Shown here piece by piece: positions 44,501-56,500 of a DNA stretch of 64,000 bases (the stretch's first letter is position 1; each line of letters starts with the position of its first letter). This DNA is from Podarcis erhardii (taxonomy: Eukaryota), in NCBI GenBank assembly GCA_964252035.1, contig OZ176200.1. One strand, 5' to 3'. The position numbers were made by a program.

Positions 44501-47500
44501 AGCAGTGTAGAGTAAAACACAGTTACATAAATTCAATAAACATTGAAAATATCAGCCCCAAACTTGCAAAAAACAAACAAACAAAGTCAGATAAAGCAGG
44601 ATTAACAAAATGATTTAAATGTAAATATAAAAAGTAAGTAAAAAGGTTTCTACTCCTCCTCAAACTATACAGCAGAGCACCAAAGTAGACTCCCCTGTGG
44701 AGAGTGGTGCACAATCATGATGTAGGTATAAGGAAGGATGTATGTTGAGCATATGTACAATCAATCCAATATGTGAATGAAAACATTGCTTCAGCTGCTT
44801 TTCAAATTCATTAAGAGAAACTCACCAGGAGAAAACAAGCCCTTACTAAATCCGGGCACACGGCAGAAACATGGAGTTGTTCTGCTCAAAGTGACTGTTG
44901 TAGTTCCTGTTGTAGAAGGTATGGAAGTACTTGTTGCTGCTGAAGACACAATAGAAAAGAAATAAATGTATAGCAGTTGTTACGTACTGCTTGAAGACAT
45001 ACTGCTGGAAATGGATGCTGAACACTGTAGATACTTAAGACTTCAGTGTACACTTCCAAAGCACCAACTGAAGCATAACAATTCAGAATTCCAACTGAAC
45101 TCAGCCGGACTTACATGTATCTTTAGGGTTGGAGAATTTAACTTGATAATTGTACTACAAAAACCAGTTAATTGTTTAATGGATCAGATCAATACTTTGC
45201 TTACTTGCTGTTCTTATTATACACCTACCATGCTATCAAGAAACAGGGGAATCCAGCTATATTCCTCCCAGTATCAAGAAACACACCCCTCCAGTCCAAA
45301 GGTGCTGTTAAGAAAATTCCAAATATCTAGCCAGAGAGCTATCTACTACTTGAAATAGCACTGAAAACTTATTTGAAAAATGCACACTGAGATCTAGGCA
45401 AACATTTTTGATAAGTTGCTAGCTGATAGACACTAGGTTTCATAAATGGGATACCAATTTTTGAAAAGGGTGGTATATGAAATAAGATCACCAAACCCCA
45501 ATTAATATGAAACAATTTGCTAACATTTGGCATGACACCTGTAATTGAGTAACATGTAATAAATTTAACTGTTGGAATATTTACCAAAGGTAACAAGATT
45601 TTCATACCAGGATATGCAGATTCATTCTGTAATTACCTGTTGTAACAACAACCAAAGGCTTAGTGGAAAATGGCACTCTGGTAGGGACAGTTGCTGTTTC
45701 TACAGTAATCCCAGTAGTGGATATCGTCGACACAGGTTTGGAAACATGGGTAGATGGAAGAGATGTGGTTGAAACGGTGGAAGCCACTCCAGAAGTGATG
45801 AAAGGTGTGCTGACGGAGCCAGGGGTTGAGAGAGGGGTGGTGGTCATGGGCTTTCCTGTTGTAATTCCAGGAGTGGTGGAAACAAGGGTGGTGCTTTGGG
45901 TGGTAGTGACTACAATGGGTGGTGGTGTAGAAGCTGTGGAGGATGCTGGAGTTGTGCTCTTGCCAGCAGTGCTGCCTGGTGTTTCTGTGGTCGTTGGCTT
46001 TCCTGTGGTTACTCCTGGAGTTGTGGAAACAAGAGTGGAGCTTTGGGTGGTGGTAAATACAATGGGAGGTGGCGTAGACCCCGTGGAGGATGCTGGAGTT
46101 GTGCTTTTGCCTGCCGTGCTGCCAGGTTTTTCTGTGGTAGAAGCAGCAGATGTGCTCAGTGGTGTTGTGCTAGGATGGCAGGGCTTGTATTCACAGCACT
46201 GGTATCTAACCTGGAAGTTATAACACATCTTGTCTGTTTGCTTTGAATTTTCACACAAAAGTCCAACATGGAGGTTACATTGCACTTCCTGACCAAGCAG
46301 ATGCAGGCTGACATCAGGGTGATTCTCAGCTCTGCATTCAATGTCTTGTGGATGTTTGCAAATATTTCCTCCAGCTTTTCGGATGGTCTCAAAATTCTCA
46401 ATATCGCCATCATCTGGACTGCTGGTAGGACGGTGCAAATCATACCAGGAGGTCCAGTTACACTTTGGGAGGCACACAGTAGAGGTACTTTCTAGCGTAG
46501 TGGTAACAAGGGGAGCCAGGGTGGTTGTTGTGGTCAGCAGGCCTGGAGGGGTTTGTGCAGTGGTCCCGGTGGTGGGTATTGTTGAGGAAGGCTTGGAAAC
46601 AGGAGTGGACTGGAGTGTTGTGGCTGTCACAGTGGGGACCACTCCAGTGGAGACGGCAGCGGTGCTGACTGAGGCTGGTGTTGTGAGAGGGAGGGTGGAA
46701 AGCGGCGTTGAGTGGGTGGTGGTGGTTGGCTTTCTTGTTGTAACTCCTGGAGTTGTCGGAAGAAGGGTGGTGCTTTCGGTGGTGGTGAATACAACGGGAG
46801 GTGGCGTAGAGCCCGTGGAGGATGCTGGAGCCGTGCTCTTGCCTGCCGTGCTGCCTGGTGTTTCTGAGGTTGTTGGCTTTCCTGTGGTTACTCCTGGTGT
46901 TGTGGAAACAAGGGTGGTGCTTTCGGTGGTGGTATGGACAACAGGAGGTGGCGTAGAGCCCGTGGAGGATGCTGGAGCCGTGCTCTTGCCCACCGTGCTA
47001 CCTGGGGCTTCTGCGGTGGTGGCACTTGTTGTGACCAGTGGCGCTGGCGTGGTTTCACAGTGCTTGTAGTCGCAACACAGTGCTCTCATCTCATAATCGT
47101 AACACATCTTGTACTTCCCCATCTGTTTGGCATTCTCACAAAGGAGTCCAGTGTTGATATCGCAGATCATGTTCTGTCCAAGTTCAGATGCGCTCAGCTC
47201 TGGGTAGTCCACTCCTCTGCACTCCACCTTTTGAGGGTGCTCGCAGATGGTACCCCCCGATGCCTGGATGCTCTTAATGTCCTCTCGATCGCCATCCCCA
47301 GGGTCGGAGCTTGGAGTGTGAAAACTGAACCAAGAGGTCCACTGGCATTTGGGTTGGCAACCGGTAGTGGTGCTTCCTGGCGTAGTGGTAACAAGGGGAG
47401 CCAGGGTGGTTGTTGTGGTCAGCAGGCCTGGAGGGGTTTGTGCAGTGGTCCCGGTGGTGGGTATTGTTGAGGAAGGCTTGGAAACAGGAGTGGACTGGAG

Positions 47501-53500: not shown

Positions 53501-56500
53501 TGTGGTGGTGGCACTTGTTGTGACCAGTGGCGCTGGCGTGGTTTCACAGTGCTTGTAGTCGCAACACAGTGCTCTCATCTCATAATCGTAACACATCTTG
53601 TACTTCCCCATCTGTTTGGCATTCTCACAAAGGAGTCCAGTGTTGATATCGCAGATCATGTTCTGTCCAAGTTCAGATGCGCTCAGCTCTGGGTAGTCCA
53701 CTCCTCTGCACTCCACCTTTTGAGGGTGCTCGCAGATGGTACCCCCCGATGCCTGGATGCTCTTAATGTCCTCTCGATCGCCATCCCCAGGGTCGGAGCT
53801 TGGAGTGTGAAAACTGAACCAAGAGGTCCACTGGCATTTGGGTTGGCAACCGGTAGTGGTGCTTCCTGGCGTAGTGGTAACAAGGGGAGCCAGGGTGGTT
53901 GTTGTGGTCAGCAGGCCTGGAGGGGTTTGTGCAGTGGTCCCGGTGGTGGGTATTGTTGAGGAAGGCTTGGAAACAGGAGTGGACTGGAGTGTTGTGGCTG
54001 TCACAGTGGGGACCACTCCAGTGGAGACGGCAGCGGTGCTGACTGAGGCTGGTGTTGTGAGAGGGAGGGTGGAAAGCGGCGTTGAGTGGGTGGTGGTGGT
54101 TGGCTTTCTTGTTGTAACTCCTGGAGTTGTCGGAAGAAGGGTGGTGCTTTCGGTGGTGGTGAATACAACGGGAGGTGGCGTAGAGCCCGTGGAGGATGCT
54201 GGAGCCGTGCTCTTGCCTGCCGTGCTGCCTGGTGTTTCTGGGGTTGTTGGCTTTCCTGTGGTTACTCCTGGTGTTGTGGAAACAAGGGTGGTGCTTTCGG
54301 TGGTGGTATGGACAACAGGAGGTGGCATAGAGCCCGTGGAGGATGCTGGAGCCGTGCTCTTGCCCACCGTGCTACCTGGGGCTTCTGTGGTGGTGGCACT
54401 TGTTGTGACCAGTGGCGCTGGCGTGGTTTCACAGTGCTTGTAGTCGCAACACAGTGCTCTCATCTCATAATCGTAACACATCTTGTACTTCCCCATCTGT
54501 TTGGCATTCTCACAAAGGAGTCCAGTGTTGATATCGCAGATCATGTTCTGTCCAAGTTCAGATGCGCTCAGCTCTGGGTAGTCCACTCCTCTGCACTCCA
54601 CCTTTTGAGGGTGCTCGCAGATGGTACCCCCCGATGCCTGGATGCTCTTAATGTCCTCTCGATCGCCATCCCCAGGGTCGGAGCTTGGAGTGTGAAAACT
54701 GAACCAAGAGGTCCACTGGCATTTGGGTTGGCAACCGGTAGTGGTGCTTCCTGGCGTAGTGGTAACAAGGGGAGCCAGGGTGGTTGTTGTGGTCAGCAGG
54801 CCTGGAGGGGTTTGTGCAGTGGTCCCGGTGGTGGGTATTGTTGAGGAAGGCTTGGAAGCAGGAGTGGACTGGAGTGTTGTGGCTGTCACAGTGGGGACCA
54901 CTCCAGTGGAGACGGCAGCGGTGCTGACTGAGGCTGGTGTTGTGAGAGGGAGGGTGGAAAGCGGCGTTGAGTGGGTGGTGGTGGTTGGCTTTCTTGTTGT
55001 AACTCCTGGAGTTGTCGGAAGAAGGGTGGTGCTTTCGGTGGTGGTGAATACAACGGGAGGTGGCGTAGAGCCCGTGGAGGATGCTGGAGCCGTGCTCTTG
55101 CCTGCCGTGCTGCCTGGTGTTTCTGGGGTTGTTGGCTTTCCTGTGGTTACTCCTGGTGTTGTGGAAACAAGGGTGGTGCTTTCGGTGGTGGTATGGACAA
55201 CAGGAGGTGGCGTAGAGCCCGTGGAGGATGCTGGAGCCGTGCTCTTGCCCACCGTGCTACCTGGGGCTTCTGCGGTGGTGGCACTTGTTGTGACCAGTGG
55301 CGCTGGCGTGGTTTCACAGTGCTTGTAGTCGCAACACAGTGCTCTCATCTCATAATCGTAACACATCTTGTACTTCCCCATCTGTTTGGCATTCTCACAA
55401 AGGAGTCCAGTGTTGATATCGCAGATCATGTTCTGTCCAAGTTCAGATGCGCTCAGCTCTGGGTAGTCCACTCCTCTGCACTCCACCTTTTGAGGGTGCT
55501 CGCAGATGGTACCCCCCGATGCCTGGATGCTCTTAATGTCCTCTCGATCGCCATCCCCAGGGTCGGAGCTTGGAGTGTGAAAACTGAACCAAGGGGTCCA
55601 CTGGCATTTGGGTTGGCAACCGGTAGTGGTGCTTCCTGCCGTAGTGGTAACAAGGGGTGTCAGAGTGGTTGTTATGCCACCTGTCACTTTAGATGTTGTT
55701 CTGGATCCTGCTGTTGTTATTTCTGGTGTTGCTGGAGTTGTTGATGCACCACATGGCGTGTATAGGCAGCATAGGAACCTGATTTCAAAATTCAGGCAGA
55801 TTGGTGGTGTCTGATCCTTATTGTTGCATATCAAACCGTTAGACTTGGAACATTGTACCTTTTGTCCGAGGGTTTCTATGCTCTCATTAGGAAAGCGCTG
55901 AGCTCTGCATTCCACTTCATCTGGCATTTTACATACTTTGTTTCCTCTATCTCTTATTTTCTCTGGTGTTTCATAATCCCCATTGTCTCGTCCAAATTTA
56001 GGGTAGCTGACATCATACCATTCTGTCCATTCACATGTTCTATGGACACATACTGTTGTTTGTGCTGTAGTGGATTCTGAAAGAAACAACATCACTGGTT
56101 ATTTTAATCCGGTTCATTTAGATCATAAATCTCCCTATCTGTTATCTGCCTCCTCTCTCCTTTCCCATGTAACCTCTCTCCCAAGTTTTTTCTGTAGATG
56201 AGGCAGGGATTGGGGGGCGGGCGGGGGACCAGAAGAGCACATTGTTGGAAGTGGATCATTCCATCTGGGGAGCTGCCATGCTTGAGCCGATTGAACCTTC
56301 AACTTAACTTTATGTTGATTTCCATCTTGTATATGTTTATTTTAAAATAATATATGCAACATGTAACAAAAATATGAATATGATGTATTTGGGGATGTTT
56401 TCCTATGTTATAGAAGATTTGTAAAGTTTTTCATTATCTCTTCATTTTCTTACATACTTTGTTTATAAATGCTTGCTTTTGATCATGTCGCATTTACATC

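What the first reader, a model, noticed from the sequence alone, without database searches (positions are those of the whole stretch)
45637..56076. Central exon built from ten almost identical CysD+PTS modules (12 CysD in total)
Seen: a unique first CysD, ten CysD copies identical in protein except one Pro/Ser, each followed by about 195 or 245 aa of PTS, and a divergent last CysD. Units differ at only a handful of nucleotides. Known: human MUC5B has 7 CysD and MUC5AC 9, with more diverged copies and longer PTS tracts. Inference: very recent expansion or strong concerted evolution producing a mucin with evenly spaced, identical cross-linking/adhesive CysD nodes about every 295 aa, predicting a fine, regular gel mesh and copy-number polymorphism among individuals.
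Basis: partly seen in the sequence, partly recalled or inferred. Interest (0 to 1): 0.65.

Follow-up and report, generated by a model that had tools for sequence, protein, structure and literature searches.

The report
Lizard MUC5B mucin repeat exon
The big central exon of a lacertid lizard's MUC5B-type mucus gene is built from ten almost identical modules, each a cysteine-rich domain plus a sugar-carrying spacer; this is real, but related lizards and many other vertebrates share the layout, so it is ordinary.

Summary
Window 45637-56076 is one exon on the minus strand (AG/GT borders, 10,440 nt, phase 1-1). It encodes 12 CysD (Pfam Mucin2_WxxW) domains: a unique first, ten near-identical internal copies and a divergent last.

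The ten CysD+PTS units are 885 nt, or 1,032 nt for two of them. Units 1-9 differ from each other at 0-5 nucleotides.

The window is not human. It holds the 3' four-fifths of a lacertid lizard's positional MUC5B orthologue. Non-repeat exons are 94-100% identical to Podarcis muralis "mucin-5B-like", and TOLLIP-like exons lie tail to tail downstream.

Podarcis (8 of 10 CysD at >=98% identity, period 295 aa), Zootoca (5 of 7, period 294) and six of seven other lizard orthologues carry the same kind of homogeneous, evenly spaced array. So do some marsupial, sirenian and fish MUC5 proteins.

First and last CysDs group by position across species, while internal ones group by species. That is concerted evolution by unequal crossing-over or gene conversion.

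This is a new member of a known kind.

The parts
45637..56076 (-). Central mucin exon: 10,440 nt, phase 1-1, 12 CysD domains separated by PTS tracts
   Evidence: Open frame; AG acceptor and GT donor; 12 PF13330 stretches; G+C 0.54-0.57 against 0.36-0.43 in the flanks
55733..56050 (-). CysD1, unique. Orthologous to the first CysD of other squamates
   Evidence: 35% identical to the internal type. 98% to Podarcis CysD1, 95% to Zootoca, 61-72% to other families. The first CysDs of 8 squamates form one clade, support 100/100
46475..55618 (-). Homogenised block of ten CysD+PTS units, U1-U10. Unit starts (minus strand): 55618, 54733, 53848, 52816, 51931, 51046, 50161, 49276, 48391, 47359. Each unit opens with a 107-aa CysD followed by a 188- or 237-aa PTS
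   Evidence: Unit table and difference matrix; mean 0.31% nt difference among U1-U9; spacing 885/1032; longest exact repeat 1,964 bp
52817..53848 (-). Long unit U3 (1,032 nt), with a third copy of the 147-nt PTS sub-repeat
   Evidence: The extra block is identical to that of U9
47360..48391 (-). Long unit U9 (1,032 nt), with the same extra 147-nt sub-repeat
   Evidence: U3 and U9 differ at 1 nt
46160..46474 (-). CysD12, divergent last copy. Orthologous to the last CysD of Podarcis and Zootoca
   Evidence: 49% identical to the internal type. The last CysDs of the 3 lacertids form a clade, 100/99
45637..46159 (-). Terminal PTS tract: a decayed copy of the unit's PTS with two 147-nt sub-repeats
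   Evidence: TRF 45840-46138, period 147, 2.0 copies, 85%. 82-92% nt identity to the unit consensus over the sub-repeat part, 73% over the whole last unit
60218..63006 (-). Upstream exons of the D3 assembly (VWD pieces)
   Evidence: Exon-wise Pfam hits to VWD at 62740-63006 (E 3.6e-9) and 60218-60511 (E 1.7e-7). tblastn to P0002 residues 864-1088
58788..58994 (-). C8 domain exon of D3
   Evidence: Pfam C8, E 5.2e-17; 95% identical to P0002
41826..42149 (-). VWD4 exon downstream of the central exon
   Evidence: Pfam VWD, E 1.1e-12; 95% identical to P0002
39320..39532 (-). C8 exon of the D4 assembly
   Evidence: Pfam C8, E 8.8e-14; 100% identical to P0002
25099..26965 (-). Last two coding exons, cystine-knot end of the mucin
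   Evidence: Pfam Cys_knot E 1.3e-4 and 3.1e-3, both below the curated cut-off. tblastn to the last 94 residues of P0002 at 95-97% identity

Best explanation
The window carries the 3' four-fifths of the MUC5B-type (MUC5B-position) gel-forming mucin gene of a lacertid lizard. Its central exon is an array of CysD+PTS 'super-repeats'. The internal copies are kept almost identical by ongoing unequal crossing-over and/or gene conversion within the exon (concerted evolution). The first and last copies lie at the array's edges, escape this process and stay orthologous between species.

Shown here: the exon, the 12 CysD domains with 10 Cys and a WxxW motif each, their CysD fold, orthology to lacertid 'mucin-5B-like' proteins, the near-identity at nucleotide level, and the same architecture in relatives.

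Inferred from work on mammalian mucins:
- The PTS tracts (48% Ser+Thr, 14% Pro) become densely O-glycosylated, extended, water-binding spacers.
- The compact, disulphide-knotted, relatively hydrophobic CysDs interrupt them about every 295 residues. They give weak, reversible homotypic or heterotypic contacts that add non-covalent cross-links to the polymer, which is disulphide-linked through its D3 and cystine-knot ends.
- The number of units can change by out-of-register recombination.
For: Domain identity:
- 12 PF13330 stretches.
- 10 Cys and one WxxW in each of the three CysD types.
- Sequence matches to solved CysDs: 8ov0 MUC5AC 1.5e-24, 8oer MUC5B 9.1e-21, 6tm6 MUC2 7.3e-17.
- An AF2 model (pLDDT 79.4) superposes on 8ov0 with TM 0.84. 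All 8 PDB matches with E<=0.001 are mucin CysD entries.

Gene identity:
- Exon-wise VWD, C8, VWD, C8 and a weak Cys_knot around the exon.
- 24 flanking tblastn pieces collinear with Podarcis muralis mucin-5B-like P0002, from residue 864 to its last residue 4988 (5 further weak matches to paralogous domains not counted); most are 94-100% identical.
- C2 and CUE exons on the opposite strand downstream. This matches the Tollip-Muc5b tail-to-tail arrangement described for most vertebrates (PMC4948705 passage).

Homogenisation rather than selection:
- Units are 99.4-100% identical in DNA among U1-U9.
- Only 4 of the 16 variable columns are synonymous, so silent sites are as uniform as the others.
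- Variants are shared in a mosaic: U5/U6 adjacent, U2=U4 around U3, and U3 and U9 six units apart sharing the same extra block.

Concerted evolution:
- Mean unit protein difference within species is 0.8% (window U1-9), 0.65% (Podarcis) and 0% (Zootoca u1-4). Between species it is 3.5% and about 10%.
- At 6 columns all 10 window units differ from all 8 Podarcis units. There are 17 such columns against Zootoca.
- In the tree of 94 CysDs from 8 squamates, internal copies group by species and edge copies by position.

Ordinariness:
- 8 of 9 lizard proteins P0002-P0010 have >=5 CysDs in a >=98% set, with regular spacing.
- Of 117 other proteins, 27 have >=5, 14 have >=8 and 10 have >=10 such copies.

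Function, from passages read:
- CYS domains are hydrophobic, and a protein of 12 identical CYS copies lowers mucus mesh size (PMC6861317).
- MUC2 CysD2 forms weak homotypic dimers (PMC11933400).
Against: - No DNA of relatives could be compared, so conversion tracts and silent-site divergence between species are unknown.
- In the tree of 23 full lacertid units, only the Zootoca clade is strongly supported (100/99). The window's units form one side of a branch with 72/96 support (74% of bootstrap trees), and the Podarcis units with 28/0 (24%).
- Counts in relatives come from predicted proteins. Two models of the same species disagree: P. muralis P0002 has 10 CysDs and P0012 has 3.
- Four snake proteins (P0059, P0093, P0094, P0101) have only 2-4 CysDs, and Anolis sagrei has at most 4 near-identical copies (two alternating types).
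- The protein list was retrieved with this repetitive exon as query, so it is enriched for look-alikes.
- Nothing here shows expression, glycosylation or CysD-CysD binding for this protein.
- Orthology to MUC5B rather than MUC5AC rests on synteny and on automatic names, not on a tree.
Confidence: 0.85

Rival explanations
1. Assembly or polishing artefact. The unit number (10) or the near-identity of units is produced by collapse, expansion or consensus polishing of a hard repeat, and the real allele differs.
For: The array is 9.1 kb of units at >=98.8% identity, with exact repeats up to 1,964 bp. Such regions are error-prone. Predicted proteins of relatives vary with the gene model: 10 against 3 CysDs in P. 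muralis. The papers read stress that mucin central exons are poorly resolved without long reads (abstracts of PMC9712336 and PMC6269512 in the listing; passages of PMC9712336).
Against: There is no N in the 64 kb and the frame stays open through all 10,440 nt. Units carry a structured set of variants and two long units, not a featureless copy. The same architecture appears in independent assemblies of at least 9 lizards.
Confidence: 0.1
2. A single, very recent burst of tandem duplication in this lineage from one ancestral unit, rather than long-term homogenisation of an old array.
For: Mean difference among U1-U9 is only 0.31% nt. Internal units of each species are closest to each other.
Against: Podarcis and Zootoca have arrays of the same 295/294-aa unit between orthologous first and last CysDs. 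Geckos, an anguid, an anole and a cordylid have arrays too. An array therefore probably predates the lacertid split. Independent bursts would be needed in every lineage, which amounts to the same turnover process.
Confidence: 0.1
3. The identity of the copies is held by purifying selection on the protein, not by recombination.
For: The ten internal CysDs differ at one residue only.
Against: Silent sites are equally invariant: 4 synonymous variable columns in 885-1,032 nt across 10 copies. The same internal CysD is only 44-56% identical between squamate families, which is less conserved than CysD1 at 61-72%. So the sequence is not under unusually strong constraint.
Confidence: 0.02

Closest known systems
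Podarcis muralis 'mucin-5B-like' (P0002) and Zootoca vivipara 'mucin-5B-like' (P0003)
   Same: Orthologues. Exons are collinear, and non-repeat exons are mostly 94-100% identical. Both have a unique first CysD, a homogeneous internal array with a 295- or 294-aa period, and a divergent last CysD.
   Different: Copy number in the models is 10 and 7 CysDs against 12 here. Longer units sit elsewhere (one of 388 aa in Podarcis, a last unit of 344 aa in Zootoca). There are 6 and 17 residue columns fixed differently across all units.
Human MUC5B central exon (four 528-aa super-repeats, 7 CysD)
   Same: One exon of about 10.7 kb that alternates Cys domains with PTS and is built of large super-repeats (PMC6780288 passage). 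CysD2-6 are called nearly identical (PMC9712336 passage). TOLLIP lies tail to tail (PMC4948705 passage). Sequence and fold match to 8oer.
   Different: The human gene has fewer, longer units with internal 29-aa repeats. Here there are ten units of 295 aa with a 49-aa sub-repeat, and 12 CysDs.
Human MUC5AC central exon (9 CysD, cys-domain copy-number variants)
   Same: Best PDB match is MUC5AC CysD7, 8ov0. Six CysDs are called nearly identical. CysD and PTS domain number varies between haplotypes (PMC11344006 passages).
   Different: The human PTS tracts are 8-aa repeats of very unequal length. Here the spacing is even.
rCYSx12, a recombinant protein of 12 identical CYS domains (Gouyer/Demouveaux/Desseyn)
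   Same: Many identical CysDs on one chain. Adding it to mucus lowered mesh size and permeability (PMC6861317 abstract and passages).
   Different: It is artificial and has no PTS spacers between the domains.

Membership tests
CysD domain (Pfam PF13330 Mucin2_WxxW) | Match to the family profile above its curated cut-off | tested here: met
   920.9 bits against a cut-off of 22.4; 12 stretches
CysD domain (Pfam PF13330 Mucin2_WxxW) | Ten conserved cysteines (five disulphides) and a WxxW motif | tested here: met
   10 Cys and one WxxW (WTEW or WTSW) in CysD1, the internal type and CysD12. All 10 Cys are invariant in the alignment. The disulphide pairing itself was not tested
CysD domain (Pfam PF13330 Mucin2_WxxW) | CysD fold as in solved structures | tested here: met
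   Model pLDDT 79.4. TM 0.84 to 8ov0, 0.81 to 8oer, 0.72 to 6tm6. All 8 hits with E<=0.001 are mucin CysD entries
CysD domain (Pfam PF13330 Mucin2_WxxW) | C-mannosylation of WxxW, calcium binding, homotypic association | not testable with these tools
   These are biochemical properties. Complex prediction for a CysD pair was not available
Gel-forming mucin of the MUC2/MUC5 type | Large central exon of PTS interrupted by CysDs | tested here: met
   (PTS 48% S+T, 14% P)
Gel-forming mucin of the MUC2/MUC5 type | Three N-terminal VWD-C8-TIL assemblies | tested here: inconclusive
   Only the D3 part lies in the window: VWD and C8 exons at 58.8-63.0 kb. About 860 N-terminal residues of the orthologue map beyond position 64000
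Gel-forming mucin of the MUC2/MUC5 type | [quoted passage not shown] | tested here: met
   VWD at 41826-42149 and C8 at 39320-39532. Cys_knot hits fall below the cut-off (22.7 and 18.2 bits against 24), but the last exons are 95-97% identical to the end of P0002. VWC was not detected exon-wise by Pfam
MUC5B orthologue | Position next to TOLLIP, tail to tail | tested here: met
   C2 exon at 2967-3308 (+) and CUE exon at 16184-16462 (+), converging on the minus-strand mucin. The arrangement is described in PMC4948705. That C2+CUE means TOLLIP is my recall
MUC5B orthologue | Groups with MUC5B and not MUC5AC in a phylogeny of non-repeat domains | not tested
   Exons were not joined into a model, so no tree of D domains was made. 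The 'mucin-5B-like' names are automatic
Concerted evolution of an intragenic tandem array | Copies within a species more alike than orthologous copies between species, with differences fixed across all copies | tested here: met
   0-0.8% within species against 3.5-10% between. 6 and 17 fixed columns. Species-wise clustering, weaker for window versus Podarcis
Concerted evolution of an intragenic tandem array | Edge copies escape homogenisation | tested here: met
   First and last CysDs form position-wise clades (100/100 and 100/99). The terminal unit is 73% identical to the consensus

The most novel reading that the evidence does not exclude
In squamate MUC5B-type mucins the period of the CysD-PTS array, and not its sequence, may be the conserved trait.
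- Lacertids keep 294-295 aa in three genera.
- Four gecko genera keep 247-250 aa.
- The PTS spacer of Gekko, Paroedura and Eublepharis is exactly 143 aa and aligns without a gap, although it is only 56-66% identical.
- The homogenised CysD itself diverges faster between families (44-56% identity) than the single-copy CysD1 (61-72%).

This would mean selection on even spacing of cross-linking nodes, a family-specific 'block copolymer' mesh. Concerted evolution would then let new CysD surfaces sweep through all nodes at once.
Probability: 0.15. Interest if true: 0.45.

Novelty: new member of a known kind. Interest (0 to 1): 0.2.

Why it matters
It is a clean, gap-free example of how a mucin's central exon is organised and renewed. 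Ten modules are identical down to silent sites, and they are bounded by two old, orthologous edge copies.

It shows that the human layout (7 or 9 CysDs with unequal spacers) is not the general vertebrate pattern. Many lizards, and some marsupial, sirenian and fish MUC5 proteins, have more regular and more homogeneous arrays.

For annotation, it warns that CysD counts in predicted proteins depend on assembly and gene model. It adds no new kind of domain, gene or mechanism.

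Tried and rejected
- Unit search for more lacertids. I searched one 295-aa unit against longer proteins to find more lacertid orthologues or the window's own protein. Only 518-2000 aa proteins were searched, and the 4 hits included no lacertid. So no further close relatives or individuals could be compared.
- Complex prediction. The queue was full each time, and the tool was then declared unavailable. Nothing was folded, so CysD self-association of this protein stays unchecked.
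- Literature.
  - 'cysd' + 'mucin' + 'concerted evolution' gave 0 papers.
  - 'mucin' with 'concerted evolution', 'gene conversion', 'tandem repeat' and 'cysteine-rich' (at least 4 of 5) gave 23 papers. None of the 10 listed concerns CysD arrays of gel-forming mucins.
  - 'lizard' + 'MUC5B' + 'gel-forming' gave 3 papers. Only PMC4948705 is relevant, and in the passages read it does not describe unit homogeneity.
  - Khmelnitsky et al. 2023 on CysD diversity is not held.
The supplementary domain maps of PMC4948705 may show reptile CysD counts, and I could not see them.
- Weak exon-wise Pfam hits (Sha_B_N, NADH_4Fe-4S, DAN, all below cut-off) are taken as chance or as cystine-knot cross-matches.
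- A six-unit higher-order repeat (U3 to U9) was considered. The neighbours do not match in register: U2 against U8 differs at 3 nt and U4 against U10 at 10 nt. I rejected it.
- Human origin was considered and rejected. The best hits are lacertid proteins and flank G+C is 0.36-0.43.

Full report
**1. What is in the sequence.**
The window has no N. Between 46 and 56 kb its G+C rises to 0.54-0.57, against 0.36-0.43 elsewhere, with strong G>C and T>A skew on the plus strand. That pattern fits a minus-strand frame rich in ACN, CCN and TCN codons.

The only long open frame is on the minus strand, 45602-56098, 3,498 codons. A polypyrimidine tract and AG end just before 56076, and a GT follows 45637.

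Pfam finds one family in it, PF13330 Mucin2_WxxW, in 12 stretches. The CysDs start at residues 17, 161, 456, 751, 1095, 1390, 1685, 1980, 2275, 2570, 2914 and 3209 of the frame.

**2. The repeat.**
Cutting from one internal CysD start to the next gives ten units. Eight are 885 nt. U3 and U9 are 1,032 nt.

The extra 147 nt in U3 and U9 is a third copy of a 49-codon PTS sub-repeat that every unit has twice. It is identical in U3 and U9.

Only 16 alignment columns vary among the ten units:
- U1-U9 differ pairwise at 0-5 positions, with a mean of 2.72 (0.31%).
- U2 and U4 are identical.
- U10 differs at 8-11 positions, mostly in its last 21 nt, where it meets the divergent last CysD.

Four of the 16 columns are synonymous and twelve are not. 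One (Pro/Ser in U1) falls in a CysD.

The longest exact repeat is 1,964 bp. The repeat finder gives the same 885/1,032 spacing.

CysD1 is 35% and CysD12 is 49% identical to the internal type. The tract after CysD12 is a decayed unit, 73% nt identity overall and 82-92% over the sub-repeats.

**3. Whose gene.**
The window is not human. A protein search with the exon gave these best hits:
- Podarcis muralis 'mucin-5B-like' (P0002, 89% identity)
- Zootoca vivipara 'mucin-5B-like' (P0003, 79%)
- then anguid, gecko, anole and cordylid MUC5-type proteins

tblastn of P0002 onto the window gives 24 collinear minus-strand pieces outside the central exon, running from 62973 (residue 864) to 25099 (the last residue, 4988); 5 further weak matches are to paralogous domains. 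Most are 94-100% identical. The window therefore holds an orthologue from another lacertid, without its first ~860 codons.

Exons were scanned one by one. This gave VWD and C8 upstream, VWD and C8 downstream, and weak cystine-knot matches at the end.

Downstream on the plus strand lie a C2 exon (2967-3308) and a CUE exon (16184-16462). I read these as TOLLIP; that C2+CUE means TOLLIP is recalled. Lang et al. 2016 state that in most vertebrates Tollip lies tail to tail with Muc5b (PMC4948705, passage). The gene is thus the positional MUC5B orthologue. A tree against MUC5AC was not made.

**4. The domain.**
Each of the three CysD types has 10 Cys and a WxxW. The internal CysD matches solved CysDs by sequence: 8ov0 MUC5AC 1.5e-24, 8oer MUC5B 9.1e-21, 6tm6 MUC2 7.3e-17.

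It also matches by predicted fold. The model has pLDDT 79.4 and TM 0.84, 0.81 and 0.72 to those entries. All 8 matches with E<=0.001 are mucin CysD entries.

The PTS part of a unit is 48% Ser+Thr and 14% Pro, with no Cys.

**5. Is it unusual? No.**
I built an HMM from three window CysDs and ran it over 118 of the 121 proteins on hand, that is the window's own exon plus 117 of the 120 proteins listed. Three entries known only from an unnamed source were left out.

| Species | Protein | CysDs in a >=98% set | Modal period (aa) |
|---|---|---|---|
| Podarcis | P0002 | 8 of 10 | 295 |
| Zootoca | P0003 | 5 of 7 | 294 |
| Elgaria | P0004 | 10 of 15 | 236 |
| Euleptes | P0005 | 11 of 15 | 247 |
| Gekko | P0006 | 13 of 15 | 250 |
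| Anolis sagrei | P0007 | 4 of 10 (two alternating types) | 266 |
| Hemicordylus | P0008 | 9 of 12 | 273 |
| Paroedura | P0009 | 12 of 13 | 250 |
| Eublepharis | P0010 | 12 of 13 | 248 |

Examples outside these nine:

| Species | Protein | CysDs in a >=98% set |
|---|---|---|
| Pogona | P0011 | 11 of 17 |
| Sarcophilus | P0013 | 13 of 18 |
| Hypomesus | P0014 | 19 of 21 |
| Trichechus | P0015 | 15 of 20 |

Of the 117 other proteins, 27 have at least 5, 14 at least 8 and 10 at least 10 near-identical CysDs. Twenty-six have 12 or more CysDs.

Against a universal rule: four snake proteins have 2-4 CysDs, most primate and many bird proteins have few or diverged copies, and a second model of P. muralis (P0012) has 3 CysDs. 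The list is also biased, because it was retrieved with this repetitive exon.

**6. How the array is kept uniform.**
In a maximum-likelihood tree of 94 CysDs from eight squamates:
- the first CysDs form one clade (100/100);
- the last CysDs of the three lacertids form another (100/99);
- the internal CysDs fall into species-specific groups inside a lacertid clade (100/100).

Whole units differ on average by 0.8% (window U1-9), 0.65% (Podarcis u1-7) and 0% (Zootoca u1-4) within a species. Between species they differ by 3.5% (window-Podarcis) and about 10% (either against Zootoca).

At 6 columns all ten window units carry one residue and all eight Podarcis units another. Against Zootoca there are 17 such columns.

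A tree of the 23 full units needs only the minimum of 2 label changes (shuffled mean 10.3; 0 of 200 shuffles as low). Branch support is strong only for Zootoca (100/99). It is moderate for the window (72/96) and poor for Podarcis (28/0).

Silent sites are uniform, variants are shared in a mosaic among units, and the edge copies escape. Together this is the standard signature of concerted evolution by unequal crossing-over and gene conversion.

A single recent burst in each lineage cannot be excluded without DNA of relatives. It would, however, have to recur in every lizard examined.

**7. What it does.**
This part is inference from mammalian work. From the passages I read:
- CysDs interrupt PTS regions in MUC2, MUC5AC and MUC5B of mammals, birds and reptiles (PMC4948705).
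- Human MUC5AC, MUC5B and MUC2 have 9, 7 and 2 CysDs, and the fold has five conserved disulphides (PMC11912381).
- The CYS domain is hydrophobic and a candidate for low-energy reversible links. A protein of 12 identical CYS copies lowers mesh size and hinders bacteria (PMC6861317, abstract and passages).
- MUC2 CysD2 forms weak homotypic dimers stabilised by TGM3 (PMC11933400, passage).

The lizard protein is therefore most likely a secreted polymeric mucin, with O-glycosylated spacers of 188 or 237 residues alternating with 12 compact CysD nodes. Whether even spacing gives a finer or more regular mesh is untested.

**8. Comparison with the known.**
Human MUC5B's 10.7-kb exon is described as four 528-aa super-repeats (PMC6780288 passage citing Desseyn 1997). 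Six MUC5AC and five MUC5B CysDs are called nearly identical (PMC9712336). Cys-domain number varies among human and ape haplotypes (PMC11344006; PMC13345508). So homogeneous CysD+PTS super-repeats and their copy-number change are known.

The lizard exon is a more regular and more homogeneous member of that kind. I found no paper describing this for squamates or naming it concerted evolution. Those searches cover only the held open-access library, and supplements were closed.

**9. Side observations.**
The period is kept within families while the sequence turns over. Gekko, Paroedura and Eublepharis share a 143-aa spacer that aligns without gaps at 56-66% identity. Internal CysDs are 44-56% identical between families, against 61-72% for CysD1. 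This is the basis of the bolder reading, selection on spacing, which I rate at 0.15.

**10. Verdict.**
The feature is real and accurately described. It is a well-resolved but ordinary MUC5B-type central exon shaped by concerted evolution: a new member of a known kind, of low interest.

Unchecked:
- the true copy number and its polymorphism;
- DNA of relatives;
- expression;
- CysD self-binding.

Noticed in passing
window 2967-3308 (+) and 16184-16462 (+): A C2-domain exon (E 1.4e-7) and a CUE-domain exon (E 7.6e-15) lie on the strand opposite to the mucin. This fits a TOLLIP-like gene tail to tail with it, the arrangement reported for Muc5b in most vertebrates (PMC4948705). The other 120 of the 123 ORFs scanned in 1-25050 had no family, apart from the reverse-transcriptase ORF listed next.
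   Followed up: partly
window 90-656 (+): A reverse-transcriptase (RVT_1) fragment, E 6.4e-28. It is probably a decayed LINE-type insertion near or inside the TOLLIP-like gene.
   Followed up: no
proteins P0005, P0006, P0009, P0010: Four gecko genera keep a 247-250-aa CysD+PTS period. The PTS spacer of Gekko, Paroedura and Eublepharis is exactly 143 aa and aligns with no gap, although it is only 56-66% identical.
   Followed up: partly
window CysD1 55733-56050 against internal CysDs; relatives: The homogenised internal CysD is less conserved between squamate families (44-56% identity) than the single-copy first CysD (61-72%). The repeated copies therefore evolve faster as a set.
   Followed up: partly
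proteins P0002 and P0012: Two gene models for Podarcis muralis give 10 and 3 CysDs (4,988 and 2,707 aa). CysD counts from predicted proteins depend on the model or assembly.
   Followed up: no
window 44794-44979 (-) and 43652-43987 (-): The two exons after the central exon still encode short PTS-like stretches before the D4 assembly. They are less conserved against Podarcis (78% and 86%) than the neighbouring domain exons.
   Followed up: no
protein P0007, Anolis sagrei: Its nine internal CysDs fall into two well-supported types (4 and 5 copies) that largely alternate along the protein. This suggests a two-unit higher-order repeat with a 266-aa period.
   Followed up: no
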